This document shows positions 45,268 to 51,305 of a DNA stretch of 64,000 nucleotides, one piece after another. The position numbers and the translations under genes were made by a program. The DNA is from Leucoraja ocellata. Lineage: Eukaryota. Under the pieces are notes generated by a model. That model saw only the letters and a program-made list of their open reading frames with translations, made no database searches and had not been told where the DNA came from. Each line of letters starts with the position of its first letter. Within the stretch, counting starts at the first letter, position 1. The stretch is taken from NCBI GenBank assembly GCA_036785375.1, contig JAWMAR010000053.1, forward strand, positions 6,758,001 to 6,822,000. Reading direction: 5' to 3'.

Positions 45268-45352
45268 AAAGATGAGCCCCGTCCCGAAACCTCACATATC
45301 CATGTTCTCCAGGGATGCTGCCTAACCTGTGCAGTTCTTTCTGTTCCAAGCA
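45268..45352 (+). mobile_element. Old, degenerate copy of the short Penelope-like repeat family
   Basis: cccgaaacctcacatatccatgttctccagggatgctgcctaacc aligns by eye to the younger copies at 47381 and 48015. Boundaries approximate. Confidence 0.6.
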
Positions 45353-46231
45353 GAATTCCACCATCTGCCCTTCCTCGTATCTTCATTTCCGGACTATAAT
45401 GACCTTGGATAATCTGCTCTACGCAAAAAGTTGACACAAAAATAAAATGTGTTTTGTGATTTGATTTGTTAAGAGAAACTGGGTGCTTTATGTACCTTTT
45501 AATCAAATTGCATTTTAGATGGAACCTTTAATCCTCTGTAATGCATTTGAAATGGATTTCATCTGACAAGCATTGATTCGAGTTAATCTAAATGTAATTA
45601 GCTAATGAGGAGTGCGTTTCTCTTTGATTATTGTAAAGTTTTATCTATCTGTAAAACGGCCCTCTGCTTAAGCACAGCAAATATTGAGATGTGGTGTTTT
45701 AAATTAAGACCAACTTTCTGTAATTTTGCGCATTGCAGTTAAGACATCTCGAATTGCGCACAGTCGCAGAATATCGATTCCTACAACTTCCTTATACTTG
45801 AGCACAACATTTTAGTTTAATATTCCAGTACCGTGTCGACGACGTGCTACATTTTCAGAAGTAGCGTCTTTCAAATGATATGTTGAACTGGAATCCCATC
45901 AGCTCACTCTGGCAGCTGCACAAGATACAATGGCATGAATTCGAAGTTACGTTATAACCAAATTCCCGACGGGTATTTTGAATGTCATGAAAGGACGAAA
46001 AAGGAGGTGACGTGTTTATTTTTCGTCAGTAAGGAAGCTCTTCGTCGACAAATTATACAATAATGGCTTTGTTCTTCTGGACGTCTGCTGGCCATGTCCT
46101 TTTTGGCCATTTGTACCTTTTGCAGTTGGTATTAAACGTCGAACCAAAGACAGAACAAAGTCAAAACTATCGGACATAAGCAAAATAGGTGTGCGGAAAG
46201 ACTTCAAGTACAAATATGAACGGATAATTAT

Positions 46232-46545
46232 ATAGAAACATAGAAATAGATGCAGCAGTAGGCCATTCGGCCCTTCGAATCTGCACGCCATTCAATATGA
46301 TCATGGCTGATCATCCAACTCAGTATCCTGTACCTGCCTTCTCTCCATACCCCCTGATACCTTTAGCCACAAGGGCCACATCCAACTCCCTCTTAAATAT
46401 AGCTAATGAACTGGCCTCAACTACCTTCTGTGGCAGAGAATTCCAGAGATTCACCACTCTCTGTGTGAAAAATGTTTTTCTCATCTCGGTCCTAAAAGAT
46501 TTCCCCCTTATCCTTAAACTGTGACTTTTTGTTCTGGAATTCCCC
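46232..46545 (-). mobile_element. 5'-truncated CR1-clade LINE 3' end (HER1-like): ORF2 C-terminus, 3' UTR and tail
   Basis: The minus frame encodes SRTKSHSLRIRGKSFRTEMRKTFFTQRVVNLWNSLPQKVVEASSLAIFKRELD, typical of the CR1 ORF2 C-terminus. It is followed by the hairpin region GAAGGGCCGAATGGCCT and a TTTCTATGTTTCTAT tail. Confidence 0.88.
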
Positions 46546-46627
46546 AGGTGCCAGCGTCCTTTATTCAGGTGCCAACATCCTTTATCGTTTAAAAAAAATG
46601 ATTTTGACACGTGCATGAAATTAAATA

Positions 46628-46795
46628 ACACGTAGAATATAAAACAGTACAGCCCAGGAACCGGCCTTTCGGCCCATAATGTCCTCGCAAATAATGATGG
46701 TAAATTAAACCAATATCCTCCGCCTGCACATGATCCACACCCTTCCATTCCCTGCACATCGTGTTCCCATCTAAAAGTCCCTCAATGCCACAAAA
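46628..46795 (-). mobile_element. Second, more diverged CR1/HER1-like LINE 3' fragment
   Basis: The minus strand reads ...ggaatggaagggtgtggatcatgtgcaggc...attatgggccgaaaggccggttcctgggctgtactgttttatattc, the same 3' tail type (gggccgaagggcctgt) as the LINE at 46232 and the SINE at 52.1 kb. Confidence 0.65.
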
Positions 46796-46799
46796 CATG

Positions 46800-46821
46800 G
46801 AGAGAGAGAGAGAGAGAGAGA
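46800..46821. repeat. (GA)n microsatellite
   Basis: GA dinucleotide run next to the LINE fragment. Confidence 0.9.
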
Positions 46822-47081
46822 AAAAACACCGCGTCAGTCGAAAAGTAACATTTCAGAGAGCAATCAGAAAATAAATCCGCAGGTATTACTGAAATAATTT
46901 GATTGCACTTGGAGGATTGGGCTGATCTTTCACCTTTGTTATAGAATAAAGATCGATATCCATTCTAATCGAGTATAATGTGAAACATTCAGCCGTATAT
47001 TCTATGAACTGAAGTCCCACCGAAACACAAATTGAAAGTATACTTTCGCTTCGGAAATCAGGGAGCGAATGAACATAAAGC

Positions 47082-47246
47082 AAAGGTAGACATAAAATGC
47101 TGGAGTAACTCAGCGGGACGGGCAGCATCCCTGGAGGGAAAAATGGGTGACGTTTCGGGTCGAGACCCTTCTTCCTGAAGTAACTCAGCGGGACAGGCAG
47201 CATCTCTGGAGAGAAGGAATGGGTGACGTATCGGGTTGAGACCCTT
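47082..47246 (-). mobile_element. Short Penelope-like repeat, partial head-to-tail tandem, 10-bp TSD
   Basis: Two tandem units of gggtctcgacccgaaacgtcacccatt...gatgctgcctgtcccgctgagttact. Flanked by aacataaagc at 47072-47081 and 47247-47256. Confidence 0.8.
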
Positions 47247-47380
47247 AACATAAAGCTGAAAATGTGTAAAGAATACCAAATGTTCAAGGCGGAATTCAAC
47301 ATGAAGCAAACTTGGAAATTGAATAGATTGACACGACGATAGCTTGGTAAACAGGCAGAAAGGCAGACGCATATATGCAT

Positions 47381-47480
47381 CAGTCTGAAGAAGGGTCTCG
47401 ACCCGAAACGTCACCTATCCCTTTTCTCCGGAGATGCTGCCTGTCCCGCTGTGTTACTCCAGCATTTTGAGTCTACCTTC
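47381..47480 (+). mobile_element. Short Penelope-like repeat monomer with hammerhead-like core, degenerate 15-bp TSD
   Basis: cagtCTGAAGAAGGGTCTCGACCCGAAACGTCacc...ccagcattttgagtctacc. Flanks are gacgcatatatgcat (47366-47380) and gacgcatacatacgt (47481-47495), 12/15 identical. Confidence 0.8.
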
Positions 47481-47569
47481 GACGCATACATACGTATATG
47501 CTCACATAAATGCAACCAAACGCGCATCCATAGTTAAAGACAATCGGAAAATTACCCAAGCAGAACCGT

Positions 47570-47658
47570 ATCCAATCCTTGTCCTCCAGTAATGCTACCT
47601 GACCTATTAAGTTCTTCCAGAACTTTGTGTTTTGCTCAAGATTCTAGCATTTGCATTG
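47570..47658 (+). mobile_element. Old, degenerate copy of the same short repeat family
   Basis: tcctccagtaatgctacctgacctattaagttcttccagaactttgtgttttgctcaagattctagcatttgca resembles the 3' part of the family. Boundaries approximate. Confidence 0.55.
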
Positions 47659-47969
47659 TGTCTTCATTCATTCGACAATATTGTTCAACGGTAGGCCAAC
47701 AGTGTTTACAAATTATCTGCTCCACATAAAAGATGACCCGGTATGGCATTGTTCATGAAGCGTTTGTTGGAAGTGATAATATGCTTTATAAATGCAAAGT
47801 TTTAATCAAATATTATATTGGCTAGACAGTCATACATTTGAAAACGGTGCCGCATGGCAAGTGATTCTGGTTTCATTGGCGAATAACGATCTGTGTTCTT
47901 TCTGATTAATGCGAAGATTACTATCTCTCTAAGTTTTTATTTGAGTATACGTAACAGGTATCTGAATAT

Positions 47970-48109
47970 GAGATATATTCTGAAGAATATATTCTGAAGA
48001 AGGACCGGAATATTCTGAAGAAGGGTCTCGACCCGAAACGTCACCCATTCCTTCTCTTCAGAGATGCTGCCTGACCCGCTGAATTACTCCAGCATTTTGT
48101 GTATACCTT
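47970..48109 (+). mobile_element. Short Penelope-like repeat with hammerhead-like core and stuttered 5' end, 14-bp TSD
   Basis: CTGAAGAAGGGTCTCGACCCGAAACGTC at 48015-48042. Flanks are aggtatctgaatat (47956-47969) and aggtatcggaatat (48110-48123), 13/14 identical. Confidence 0.8.
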
Positions 48110-48216
48110 AGGTATCGGAATATAGTGCTTCAACTTAAATTTAATATTTGGTGTAATTTTTTGCATCAGAAATAAAGACACGAGAAACATCATCGAAATG
48201 ATGTTTGATTCTCTAA

Positions 48217-48833
48217 NNNNNNNNNNNNNNNNNNNNNNNNNNNNNNNNNNNNNNNNNNNNNNNNNNNNNNNNNNNNNNNNNNNNNNNNNNNNNNNNNNNN
48301 NNNNNNNNNNNNNNNNNNNNNNNNNNNNNNNNNNNNNNNNNNNNNNNNNNNNNNNNNNNNNNNNNNNNNNNNNNNNNNNNNNNNNNNNNNNNNNNNNNNN
48401 NNNNNNNNNNNTGNNNNNNNNNNNNNNNNNNNNNNNNNNNNNNNNNNNNNNNNNNNNNNNNNNNNNNNNNNNNNNNNNNNNNNNNNNNNNNNNNNNNNNN
48501 NNNNNNNNNNNNNNNNNNNNNNNNNNNNNNNNNNNNNNNNNNNNNNNNGGTGNNNNNNNNNNNNNNNNNNNNNNNNNNNNNNNNNNNNNNNNNNNNNNNN
48601 NNNNNNNNNNNNNNNNNNNNNNNNNNNNNNNNNNNNNNNNNNNNNNNNNNNNNNNNNNNNNNNNNNNNNNNNNNNNNNNNNNNNNNNNNNNNNNNNNNNN
48701 NNNNNNNNNNNNNNNNNNNNNNNNNNNNNNNNNNNNNNNNNNNNNNNNNNNNNNNNNNNNNNNNNNNNNNNNNNNNNNNNNNNNNNNNNNNNNNNNNNNN
48801 NNNNNNNNNNNNNNNNNNNNNNNNNNNNNNNNN
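48217..48833. other. Assembly gap (N run with a few called bases)
   Basis: Ns. Confidence 1.
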
Positions 48834-48847
48834 GGAGGGGGTGGGTG

Positions 48848-48935
<88 letters not shown>
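48848..48935. repeat. (GACA)n tetranucleotide microsatellite
   Basis: Perfect GACA array adjoining an assembly gap. Confidence 0.97.
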
Positions 48936-49581
48936 TAAAGCCACTTTTGTCACCAACCAATATATTCTGTTTTGTACATATTGCATTTTGTTGGAAAGAG
49001 GAAGTAACACTGTTTCGAATCAACTGCAATATAGCGCCTGTACAAAGCTGCCAATTTTATTAAAATACATATTAATACATTGAATTACTTTACATATTCA
49101 ATGTTTCAAATCATTTCAAATTTGAAAATAAAAAACTTAATTTTTCCAACATTCATCTGCAACTTCCTCTTCAACCCTTACCGACAAAATCATTTTAATA
49201 CAAAACATAACCTTCAGAAAAGCAATTATCTCACTCTAAAGAGTTATATACACGTTAAAATTAATAGTTTAGAGATAATATATATATTTGCAATCATACT
49301 GAATATCATGATATTAAGAACTAAAGTATGATGTTATTATTCCTCGTTTCCTATGTTTAACGAAGCCAACCTGTGAATATTGTTCAATGCAAAATGAACG
49401 GTAAATCTTTCATTATGGTTAAATATAACTTTTCCATGCGGGCAGTTGTGTCAAATATATGAAAATGCAGCTGCACGTTGAATGGTTTAAGTCCGTGTAT
49501 ATCTGAAGAGAAGTGTTTGGGCATTACATGCTGCAAACAATATTTTGTAAACTGCTTTCTTTGAGTAAAGGTGTTCCCATT

Positions 49582-49671
49582 TTACAGCCCAGGGCAGCTT
49601 GGACGCGTCGTTTGGTGCACACGAAGATGTTTTTTCTCTTTTTGTCTTTGGTTTTGGAACCATATTTTTAC
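49582..49671 (-). CDS. hoxd14: Hoxd14 exon 3 (homeodomain helix 3 and C-terminus; not in the ORF track)
   Basis: Acceptor TTTTCAG| followed by VKIWFQNQRQKEKKHLRVHQTTRPSCPGL* (TAA at 49582-49584). WFQNQR is the paralogue-14 helix-3 signature. Confidence 0.93.
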   Translation of the reverse strand, partial: VKIWFQNQRQKEKKHLRVHQTTRPSCPGL

Positions 49672-49846
49672 CTGAAAAGTAGTAGAATATTTGTTTTAAA
49701 CAGAAAACTTACAAATAGGAACTGTCTCGGTTTTTAATGTTCCCTGGAAATACATGCACCCACCTGTTGGCAAGCAAGAAAGACCAGACCATCGGATAGG
49801 GATTTCATTCTCTCATATTGTAACGGGTGGAAAAAGACTGTCTTAC

Positions 49847-50028
49847 CTGTCTTTCTGATAAACCTAATTTAAAGGAAATATTCAGTCGGATTTCAGGGGT
49901 GAGGAATCGATTTTTTTCAAAAGACTTTTCCAATTCAGCAATTTGCTGTTTGCTGTAAGGAATTCGTTTCTTTCTTAGGCTACTTCCAGGGTTCTGTGAC
50001 TGCGGCCAGTGCGATGTCAATCCGAAAG
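49847..50028 (-). CDS. hoxd14: Hoxd14 exon 2 (homeodomain helices 1-2)
   Basis: Acceptor GTTACAG| at 50029/50028. Encodes (A)[60 protein letters not shown]. Phase-0 donor CAG|GTAAG at 49847/49846. Confidence 0.92.
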
Positions 50029-50776
50029 CTGTAACGTACACACCAATGAAGACGTTAAACATACATTTAAGGCAATACCTTTACATAACTATGCTTTTAT
50101 ACACGCGAGTCGCCGTTGCGGTCCTTACTTATTTAATTCGAAGTTAGCTATTTTACCGCCACAACACTTATAAAGCCTGAAGATGACAATTAGTATCAAT
50201 ATATGTCAAAGTATTCATTCCATAGTTCATCTTCAAAAAGTAAATGTTCTTCTAATCTTATGCATCTGAAATGACGTGTCATATACTTAAAACTTGGTTT
50301 CCAATATCTCCAATGCATATTTGAATGGTTAGTGGCTATATCAAAAGTATTTGGTTTTCGACTGAAGTTGAAATTCTTCTTCTCTTGCTATGTTAACATA
50401 ATGTGTCTGCAAATAGAAACATTTGATTTTGCCTCCGAAATGTTTCAGTGAAAAGGGATATGATGAAATTTATTGGCGGCGAGCCGACATATATGATCAC
50501 TTTGCTGTGGTAAATAAGTTGAATGAACCTTATAAATGTTTAGGTTTCTTTAGGGGGAAAACACATTTCCTAAAGAGTTATGGATTTACTTTCCAAACAC
50601 TAAATGCAAAGAGTAAATGCGATATAAATACAGTCAAGGTAAAGTAACTCAGGTAACAACGGTGGTGCAACAAAGCAAGCAAATTCCAACACTTGCCTTT
50701 TTCAAACATATATTGAAAACGAAAGCAATCGTTAAGCACGTTAGCCAAGATTAGTACAAGGCATCATCAGACTGAC

Positions 50777-51305
50777 CTAAATGCATTGGGACGCCGGGAC
50801 CTGTCGTTGGAAGTGTTCCTCCTGAAATGGGTGCTCCGTAATACTGGGAATGGCTGAACGAAGTGAGGTCCAGGTCATTGGGATCTGTTTGGATCTGGAC
50901 AGGTGCAGCCCGGGAGTATTCTAGTGGCCAACTCTGATAAATTCCTGAGTTTGTGGAGGTTTCACTTCTCTCGCAGGGATTGTGGGGGTAGTTACTAAAC
51001 AAAGATATATGACTGTCACTTTGGAGCTGGTTGGCAGTGAATCGACCTGCCTCAGGTGAGACGGCAAAGATGTCCCGATCTACTATTCCACGTGAACTGC
51101 AAGTCGAAAAGTCCTCCGAATACAATCCGAGGCATTTTCCACCTGGGGTCGTTTTCAACGCTGAAGGAAACATAGCAGGGCGAAACGCAATATTCGTGGA
51201 AAGTACTGGATTCATATCAAGTGGACGCTGTTCATCCTGCAGCATTACTGCCTTATCGCTAGATGTCTCTAACGTCAGCTTGTACCGTAGCGAGGTCGAA
51301 TCCAT
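50777..51305 (-). CDS. hoxd14: Hoxd14 exon 1
   Basis: ATG-initiated ORF (MDSTSLRYKL...YQSWPLEY...VPMHL). Phase-1 donor TTAG|GTCAGT matches the phase of exon 2. Total spliced CDS 801 nt, 266 aa, with no internal stops. Assigned by position and phase rather than by recognised motifs. Confidence 0.8.

What the first reader, a model, noticed from the sequence alone, without database searches (positions are those of the whole stretch)
47072..48123. Short retro-insertions carrying a minimal hammerhead-ribozyme-like core inside a HoxD cluster
Seen: an approximately 100-bp repeat family whose 5' end reads CTGAAGA-A-GGGT(CTCG)ACCC-GAAA-CGTC. It is intact at 47385-47412 and 48015-48042, and damaged in two minus-strand units within 47082-47246. 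Established: the hammerhead core is CUGANGA / stem II / GAAA / stem III / UH, and Penelope-like elements (GIY-YIG retroelements) carry minimal type-I hammerheads with a vestigial, palindromic stem III thought to act as dimers. Inference: stem II is GGGU/ACCC with one extra A after A9; stem III is the loopless self-complementary ACGU, which could form only between two copies; cleavage would follow GUC at 47412 or 48042. Each insertion has a 10-15 bp TSD, as expected from target-primed reverse transcription. This suggests a non-autonomous, ribozyme-bearing Penelope-derived family in a cartilaginous fish. Caveat: stem I is only 1-2 bp in these copies, so they may be inactive relics of a longer parent.
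Basis: partly seen in the sequence, partly recalled or inferred. Interest (0 to 1): 0.75.

Follow-up and report, generated by a model that had tools for sequence, protein, structure and literature searches.

The report
Skate Penelope fragments with minimal hammerhead
These are short end pieces of a very abundant Penelope-type jumping gene in a skate, carrying a known kind of minimal self-cutting RNA motif that is probably inert at this spot, so the catch is correct but the kind is not new.

Summary
The 28-nt motif is exact at 47385-47412 and 48015-48042 and damaged in two minus-strand units. It fits the published minimal hammerhead of metazoan Penelope-like elements (PLEs) letter for letter. 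With the partial tandem and 8-14-bp TSDs, these are the PLE insertion hallmarks. The host is a skate; the site lies between HoxD14 and HoxD13. The family is very abundant: about 133,000 contigs per DNA run and 0.3% of poly(A) reads. Not shown: an RT plus GIY-YIG parent, a separate non-autonomous family, covariation, or cleavage. RNA shows no end pile-up at the scissile bond, most copies span it, and predicted folds bury the core. Antisense tRNA-promoter-like boxes remain unexplained. The scan found the same kind three times before in sharks. Verdict: new member of a known kind.

The parts
47385..47412 (+). Minimal type-I hammerhead core, copy A: CUGA box, extra A after A9, 4-bp helix II with 4-nt loop, GAAA, loopless palindromic helix III (47408-47411), cleavage triplet ending at 47412
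   Evidence: matches the consensus of Fig. S3 in PMC4209133
47383..47414 (+). Copy A hammerhead with its 2-bp helix I (47383-47384 pairing with 47413-47414)
47379..47480 (+). Insertion A, short 3' end (no tail); TSD 47366-47373 and 47481-47488 exact, 11 bp with one mismatch
47418..47431 (+). Pyrimidine-rich tract complementary to the 5' core and helix II 5' strand; buries them in predicted folds
   Evidence: prediction only
48014..48113 (+). Insertion B, begins at position 2.1, core 48015-48042, helix I 1 bp; TSD 48006-48013 and 48116-48123 exact
47082..47174 (-). Unit C2: downstream unit of a partial tandem, begins at core position 5
47175..47246 (-). Unit C1: upstream, 5'- and 3'-truncated unit of the partial tandem; the pair C1+C2 is flanked by a 10-bp TSD (47072-47081, 47247-47256)
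52761..52932 (.). Fold-back insertion F: two 5'-truncated arms head to head, inversion centre 52822|52823 at the helix III palindrome, 39-nt tail (52894-52932) on the right arm only; 14-bp TSD (52747-52760, 52933-52946)
53011..53156 (.). Fold-back insertion G: head-to-head arms, 34-nt tail (53011-53044) on the left arm only; 13-14-bp TSD (52997-53010, 53157-53170); centre not at the palindrome
45269..45345 (+). Older, decayed family copy D (58 of 77 identical to A); no TSD found
47563..47640 (+).

Best explanation
These are the 3' ends (pLTR pieces) of a Penelope-like retroelement family that has spread to very high copy number in skates, and the motif is the standard PLE minimal hammerhead. 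Mechanism: a PLE protein (GIY-YIG nuclease plus RT) cuts the target with a stagger of about 8-14 nt and primes reverse transcription at one of two internal sites about 70 and about 105 nt downstream of the scissile bond. That gives the short end and the tailed end. cDNA synthesis usually stops early, mostly just 5' of the CUGA box. When both cut strands are extended, the two cDNAs join head to head and give the fold-backs. The template was uncleaved RNA. In the parent the hammerhead most likely cleaves slowly, as a dimer and with protein help; the copies at this HoxD site are dead passengers. Shown here: motif, polarity, TSDs, tandem, fold-backs, tail, abundance, no cleavage signal. Inferred from the literature: the enzyme, the two priming sites, two-strand priming, dimer cleavage.
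For: Motif equals the published consensus, including the unpaired base after A9, G10.1-C11.1 and the palindromic 15.2-16.2. PLE hallmarks in print are 5' truncation, partial tandems, head-to-head inverted copies, a 30-40-bp tail on one end and 8-10-bp TSDs in rotifer Penelopes. In the window: 1 partial tandem, 2 fold-backs, each with one tailed arm (39 and 34 nt), and TSDs on 5 of 7 insertions. The tail recurs in reads: loose-end consensus at 47481, 2463 reads, agreement 0.8. Inverted and head-to-tail joints occur in both DNA runs. Two internal RT start sites, extension of both strands and use of unprocessed RNA were shown for the anole PLE. RNA depth is 0.93/0.91 just before and 1.0/0.99 across the scissile bond, so there is no step. 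Non-CpG variants inside the hammerhead lie in loop II (2), at position 17 (1), or keep a pair as U-G (2). PLEs are expanded in whale shark introns.
Against: No RT or GIY-YIG parent was found: 0 of 72 scanned window frames and 0 hits for the element's open frame. No Rfam hammerhead model matches. Predicted folds do not give the hammerhead: helix II probability 0.0-0.35, designated dimer -6.1 against an MFE of -22.3 kcal/mol, and no fold beats shuffles except C2 at z -2.0. No true compensatory pair in helix II; the one two-sided change counted comes from the decayed copy E. Core conservation is not significantly above the flank: 0 of 7 checkable core positions against 11 of 66 downstream positions vary at 4% or more in run X1 (about 0.28 by chance, hand estimate). 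G12 decays in 12-22% of reads like any CpG. The sharp 5' boundary and the antisense promoter-like boxes are not predicted by simple random truncation.
Confidence: 0.82

Rival explanations
1. Sub-variant of the best explanation: a dedicated short non-autonomous element of 100-140 nt with its own defined 5' end at helix I, mobilised in trans by a PLE protein. The 5' end could be a transcription start or the 3' splice site of the pLTR intron.
For: 5' ends cluster at 47379-47384: loose ends there number 1279-2172 contigs each in X1 and 2365-3486 reads each in X23, and those at 47382/83 have random AT-rich flanks. B starts exactly at position 2.1. Both upstream consensuses are pyrimidine-rich and run into CAG right before position 2.1. 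The Drosophila virilis PLE intron ends at helix I.
Against: Two different upstream extensions exist, so longer parents exist. Window units start at 7 different offsets (47379, 84, 87, 91, 410, 421, 424). The reference copy itself starts at 47379, so depth cannot show what lies upstream. PLE copies are reported to keep their introns.
Confidence: 0.35
2. A tRNA-derived SINE read from the opposite strand, with the hammerhead a coincidence.
For: The antisense strand has A-box-like and B-box-like words (1 mismatch each in A and C2; 2 and 1 in B) 51-52 nt apart; 0 of 5000 shuffles reach this. With the hammerhead stem held fixed the two chances are 1313 of 20000 and 390 of 20000. By eye, 6 of 7 acceptor-stem pairs fall in tRNA register. 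The box consensuses were recalled; the B box also appears.
Against: No tRNA by ARAGORN or by Rfam at E up to 10, even on 105-114-nt stretches. The family extends 17 nt (short form) to over 50 nt (tailed form) beyond the putative start, where a Pol III copy cannot reach. The putative 3' end is missing in the fold-back arms and carries no LINE-like or simple-repeat tail, unlike the LINE end at 46227-46545. The B-box overlaps helix II, and the A47401G subfamily worsens it while keeping the sense-strand pair.
Confidence: 0.05
3. A non-LTR retrozyme: tandem units cut by dimeric hammerheads into circles of about 95 nt that are reverse-transcribed once around.
For: Head-to-tail joints from 47468-47475 back to 47380-47382 occur in DNA contigs (4-16 contigs per listed joint). 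A preprint reports retrozymes in 1 of 1 chondrichthyan sampled.
Against: Such joints are heterogeneous and few against about 133,000 contigs laid (288 further joint rows were hidden). The tail cannot come from a 95-nt circle. The window's tandem joins two different subfamily units at another point. No RNA joint of this kind above 7 reads and no end pile-up.
Confidence: 0.05
4. The copies were co-opted to cut or end RNA at the posterior end of the HoxD cluster.
For: Two intact cores lie 630 nt apart on one strand, so one transcript could hold both.
Against: Both intact cores are antisense to the Hox genes; the sense-strand units are the damaged ones. In the 739-nt region the A-B helix III has probability 0.0. 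The flanks drew almost no contigs or reads from the distant run X11 or the RNA runs, so no sign of a conserved or transcribed locus was seen.
Confidence: 0.02

Closest known systems
Minimal hammerheads (min-HHR) of metazoan PLEs (Cervera and de la Pena 2014, PMC4209133)
   Same: Core, extra base after A9, G10.1-C11.1, loopless palindromic helix III, short helix I, pyrimidine/U-rich upstream, mostly found as single motifs from truncated PLEs, sometimes as close pairs on opposite strands.
   Different: No chondrichthyan among the 56 aligned representatives. Helix II of 4 bp and helix I of 2 bp are at the short end of the range. Abundance looks one to two orders above the 4,000-9,000 motifs given for coelacanth and Xenopus (rough; contig counts are not copy numbers).
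Poseidon from Anolis carolinensis (Frangieh et al. 2024, PMC11167929)
   Same: Hammerhead followed by two 3' end classes that differ by a 30-40-nt tail; uncleaved RNA as template; no RNA-seq ends at the cleavage site.
   Different: There the ORF overlaps the hammerhead and the protein is known. Here no ORF link was found and the clade is unknown.
Adineta vaga Penelope inverted pLTRs (Arkhipova et al. 2013, PMC3846280)
   Same: Head-to-head inverted pLTRs, tail on one arm, 8-10-bp TSDs, palindromes at the inverted junction.
   Different: Here the fold-backs hold no ORF at all, and in one of two the junction palindrome is the hammerhead's own helix III.
Non-LTR retrozymes (Cervera and de la Pena 2020, PMC7229834; Li et al. 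2026 preprint 10.64898/2026.07.22.740005)
   Same: Non-coding, type-I hammerhead, derived from pLTRs.
   Different: Retrozymes are tandem arrays with a hammerhead in each unit; these copies are dispersed monomers, fold-backs and a partial tandem with damaged cores.

Membership tests
Metazoan PLE minimal hammerhead | Core CUGANGA, extra base, helix II opening with G-C, GAAA, N-U-H | tested here: met
Metazoan PLE minimal hammerhead | Palindromic 15.2-16.2 with no or tiny loop III | tested here: met
   47408-47411 is self-complementary
Metazoan PLE minimal hammerhead | Helix I closing the type-I fold | tested here: met
   2 bp in A, 1 bp in truncated B; 2-bp cases among published representatives
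Metazoan PLE minimal hammerhead | Covariation in helices and a core better kept than flanks across the family | tested here: inconclusive
   Only U-A to U-G changes at 11.4 and 1.1; 0 of 7 checkable core against 11 of 66 flank positions vary in X1, not significant; 25 variant rows hidden
Metazoan PLE minimal hammerhead | Self-cleavage as a dimer | not testable with these tools
   Indirect only: no RNA end pile-up; dimer fold not favoured in prediction
Penelope-like elements | ORF with telomerase-like RT and GIY-YIG nuclease between pLTRs | tested here: inconclusive
   None in 72 of 228 window frames scanned; element frame finds no protein; no genome held
Penelope-like elements | 5' truncation and partial tandems | tested here: met
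Penelope-like elements | Inverted 5'-truncated copy joined head to head | tested here: met
   2 of 7 window insertions; inverted joints in both DNA runs
Penelope-like elements | Optional 30-40-bp tail on one end | tested here: met
   39 and 34 nt, one arm each; tail consensus in reads
Penelope-like elements | Short TSDs | tested here: met
   8-14 bp exact on 5 of 7 insertions; none on the 2 oldest
Non-LTR retrozymes | Tandem units each with a complete hammerhead | tested here: not met
   The window's one tandem has two damaged cores; whole-unit tandem joints are rare in contigs
tRNA-derived SINEs | tRNA-like head with A and B boxes 10-15 nt from the 5' end | tested here: not met
   Box-like words exist antisense but start 23-27 nt or more from the end; no tRNA model match
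tRNA-derived SINEs | Constant 3' end with LINE-like or simple-repeat tail | tested here: not met
   That end is the variably truncated one and has no such tail
Rfam hammerhead families | Match to a curated covariance model | tested here: not met
   0 matches at gathering and none at E up to 10
Named Dfam or Repbase family | Identity to a deposited consensus | not testable with these tools

The most novel reading that the evidence does not exclude
A dedicated SINE-like element of 100-140 nt mobilised by Penelope, at hundreds of thousands of copies in skates, whose 5' end is set by a splice site at helix I. Its hammerhead works less as a cutter than as a joining device: the helix III palindrome and the core-complementary tract are the points at which two cDNAs anneal to make the head-to-head inversions, and the opposite strand carries a Pol III-like promoter that supplies the antisense RNA once proposed for PLE inversion. 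Hints: F inverts exactly at the palindrome (1 of 2 fold-backs); the best-supported inverted joints link 47383/84 to 47420-47432, the core-complementary tract; antisense boxes at a joint chance of about 1 in 1000.
Probability: 0.12. Interest if true: 0.6.

Novelty: new member of a known kind. Interest (0 to 1): 0.27.

Why it matters
The kind is known since 2014, so the motif alone is not surprising. The value is practical. This looks like one of the most abundant hammerhead-bearing repeats in a vertebrate, in a lineage missing from the 2014 alignment and not named in the two skate genome papers searched. So many copies would let someone test two open questions by counting alone: whether selection on the parent keeps the ribozyme fold, and how PLE inversions and tails arise. 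It says little about Hox regulation, beyond marking where the repeat-free part of the cluster ends.

Tried and rejected
Own-genome search: no genome held. Motif scans of viral, metagenome and prokaryote contigs: 0 hits in 4 scans, so no further loci with flanks. Rfam: nothing at gathering over 64 kb, only chance-level unrelated families at E up to 10. ARAGORN: 0. Search for longer proteins holding the element's open frame: 1 candidate, none scored; weak evidence. Pfam on 72 of 228 frames of 62 aa or more (72 of the 90 right of 39.9 kb): homeodomains only. Sequencing-run search: no RNA holder listed; raw RNA runs came by species label and belong to a related organism, not the window's best holder. 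In vivo cleavage: no pile-up of ends, but the table needs a fifth of the depth, and reads come almost wholly from copies embedded in host RNA (98-99% run on), so rare cleavage would be missed. Strand of transcription could not be told (mates near equal). Pair count used a misregistered structure and was discarded; one search is the corrected one and rests on only 10 rows. Literature searches for this family or its sequence words: none found. Lunse et al. 2017 is not held; one search opened an unrelated paper through a wrong id. Earlier scan notes by sequence and by place: nothing.

Full report
Observation. The 28-nt motif is exact at 47385-47412 and 48015-48042 and present with 2 mismatches at 47149-47176 on the minus strand; 0 of 100 shuffles reach 3 matches. 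A fifth, decayed copy E (47563-47640) also lies there. Exact TSDs are 8, 8 and 10 bp for A, B and C, or 11, 10 and 12 with one mismatch; random flanks matched as well in 3 to 20 of 1000 trials.

Setting. The window holds HoxD8 to HoxD13 on the minus strand, a three-exon HoxD14 and Evx2 (gene names other than HoxD14 are my reading of the translations). HoxD14 exon 1 is 90% identical to a Rhinoraja longicauda protein and 53-72% to those of other rays, sharks and a chimaera, one of them labelled HoxD14. The host is a skate. The finding sits between HoxD14 and HoxD13.

The motif. The published consensus for PLE minimal hammerheads is the CUGA box, one extra base, helix II opening with G-C, GAAA, a palindromic N-N-U and H, with a U-rich stretch upstream (PMC4209133; main text parts 1-3 of 4; supplement parts 1-2 of 3). 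Copies A and B fit it fully. Helix I of 2 bp occurs among the published representatives (Culex, three Drosophila species, Oikopleura). My descriptor finds only these 2 sites in the window; 11 of 300 shuffles give any hit and 4 of 300 a hit with 2-bp helix I. That chance is low but not tiny, so the motif alone would not settle the matter. Rfam has no matching model.

The insertion shapes settle it better. Two more insertions of the family lie between HoxD14 and Evx2: F (52761-52932, 14-bp TSD, 0 of 1000 random) and G (53011-53156, 13-14-bp TSD, 1 of 1000). Each is a head-to-head pair of 5'-truncated arms, and each has a tail on one arm only, 39 and 34 nt beyond A's end. Partial tandems, inverted 5'-truncated copies and a one-sided 30-40-bp tail are the stated PLE hallmarks (passages of PMC8557442; PMC8969392; PMC3846280, which also gives TSDs of 8-10 bp and palindromes at inverted junctions). 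PMC11167929 (parts 1-2 of 4) shows for the anole PLE that the tail reflects two internal RT start sites, that both DNA strands are cut and extended, that uncleaved RNA is the main template, and that the hammerhead cleaves only with protein.

Family-wide data (copy A with flanks, likeness 80). Laid: 133,514 of 20.4 million contigs (X1) and 132,732 of 26.3 million (X11); 39,548 and 41,680 of 12.9 million RNA reads, 0.31% and 0.32%, from a related organism. These are not copy numbers, but they point to at least the order of 100,000 copies. Of the RNA reads laid, 98-99% run on into unlike sequence, as expected of copies inside host transcripts. The tail recurs as a loose-end consensus at 47481 (2463 reads, agreement 0.8). 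Inverted joints and rare head-to-tail joints occur in both DNA runs; 288 joint rows were hidden. 5' loose ends cluster at 47379-47383. Those at 47382/83 look like random flank; those at 47379/80 show two pyrimidine-rich upstream consensuses (agreement 0.37-0.44), so longer parents exist. Both run into CAG just before position 2.1, which resembles a 3' splice site; in D. virilis the PLE intron ends at helix I. This splice reading is inference.

Conservation. Among variants at 4% or more, those inside the hammerhead are CpG decay (including G12, 12-22%), two loop II changes, position 17 C to U, and two A-to-G changes that turn U-A into U-G in helices II and I. From the change counts, only 3 of 34 variant places in X1 are unlocated (one G>A, one C>T, one C>G), so the 7 core A and U positions stay under 4%; C3, G5 and G8 cannot be cleared. 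Against 11 of 66 variable downstream positions this is not significant, and reads are clipped near the 5' edge. On the 10-row window alignment helix II is paired in 79% of cells, with no convincing two-sided change. Covariation is therefore not shown.

Activity. No place with many RNA starts or ends was found, and relative depth is 0.93/0.91 before and 1.0/0.99 across the scissile bond. Most copies thus come from uncleaved or religated RNA. Predicted folds pair the core with a tract at 47418-47431 instead of forming the hammerhead; helix II probability is 0.0-0.35, and the full dimer scores -6.1 against an MFE of -22.3 kcal/mol. This is against activity of these copies, though weak activity is the rule for the class: low even as dimers (passages of PMC6765202), and 1 of 9 tested Xenopus dimers cleaved (preprint 10.64898/2026.07.22.740005, parts 1-3 of 5). 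At this locus both intact cores are antisense to the Hox genes.

What was not found. No RT or GIY-YIG remnant in 72 of 228 window frames, no protein bearing the element's frame, no further loci in four collection scans, no genome. PLE membership therefore rests on the RNA motif and the insertion shapes, not on the defining ORF. Whether the copies come from autonomous parents or from a dedicated short element is open.

Against my reading. The antisense strand carries A-box-like and B-box-like words 51-52 nt apart; 0 of 5000 plain shuffles reach this, and the joint chance with the hammerhead stem fixed is about 1 in 1000. The consensuses were recalled. No tRNA model matches, the family extends past the putative start, and the polarity is wrong for a SINE, so I give that rival 0.05. 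The boxes stay unexplained.

Known and new. PLE expansion is reported in whale shark (passages of 10.1101/443036). Retrozymes are reported in 1 of 1 chondrichthyan sampled; the species and families are in closed preprint supplements and could include a relative of this repeat. Term counts for Penelope were 0 in two skate genome papers and one ray and skate preprint; passages of PMC7229834 name no shark. Eight searches found no description of this family, but Dfam, Repbase and Lunse et al. 2017 (known only through its citation) could not be seen. Three earlier scan notes report the same kind in shark genomes; they are unchecked and not independent support.

Verdict. A correct catch of a known arrangement: new member of a known kind, interest 0.27. 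The boldest reading left open is a Penelope-driven short element whose hammerhead palindrome and core-complementary tract direct the inversions (probability 0.12, interest 0.6).

Noticed in passing
window 1-39900 against 45269-53156: All 7 insertions of the family lie beyond HoxD13, around HoxD14; none lies among HoxD8-HoxD13 (about 0.001 if uniform).
   Followed up: partly
window 52822|52823: Fold-back F inverts exactly in the middle of the helix III palindrome (one base changed); fold-back G does not.
   Followed up: partly
window 47975-48024: The 5' junction of copy B (part of the TSD plus the first 8-11 nt of the element) is repeated twice more just upstream, as if by slippage or repeated template jumps.
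   Followed up: no
window 47405-47464 (reads laid): RNA reads join 47464 back to 47405 with 6 extra letters (432 and 538 reads in X23 and X24), a 66-nt unit without the CUGA box. Related joints exist in DNA contigs; the RNA is from another organism, so genomic tandem or circle cannot be told.
   Followed up: no
window 47393-47463, minus strand: tRNA-promoter-like A and B boxes and a partial acceptor-stem register on the antisense strand; unit C1 ends one base from the putative start.
   Followed up: partly
window 47397 and 47401: C47397T and A47401G rise and fall together between runs (12% and 10% in X1, 3% and 2% in X11), suggesting a subfamily with a UUCG loop closed by U-G.
   Followed up: no
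window 47421-47432 and matching places in other copies: A small second hairpin downstream of the hammerhead is paired in 88% of cells with two two-sided changes in the 10-row alignment, but loose-end consensuses of other subfamilies break it.
   Followed up: partly
window 46227-46545, minus strand: 3' end of a LINE, probably CR1-type (label recalled), ending in a short tandem repeat.
   Followed up: no
window 49621-51314, minus strand: HoxD14 with an open exon 1 and a homeobox split by an intron; databases mostly mislabel its relatives as Hox-D12-like and similar.
   Followed up: partly
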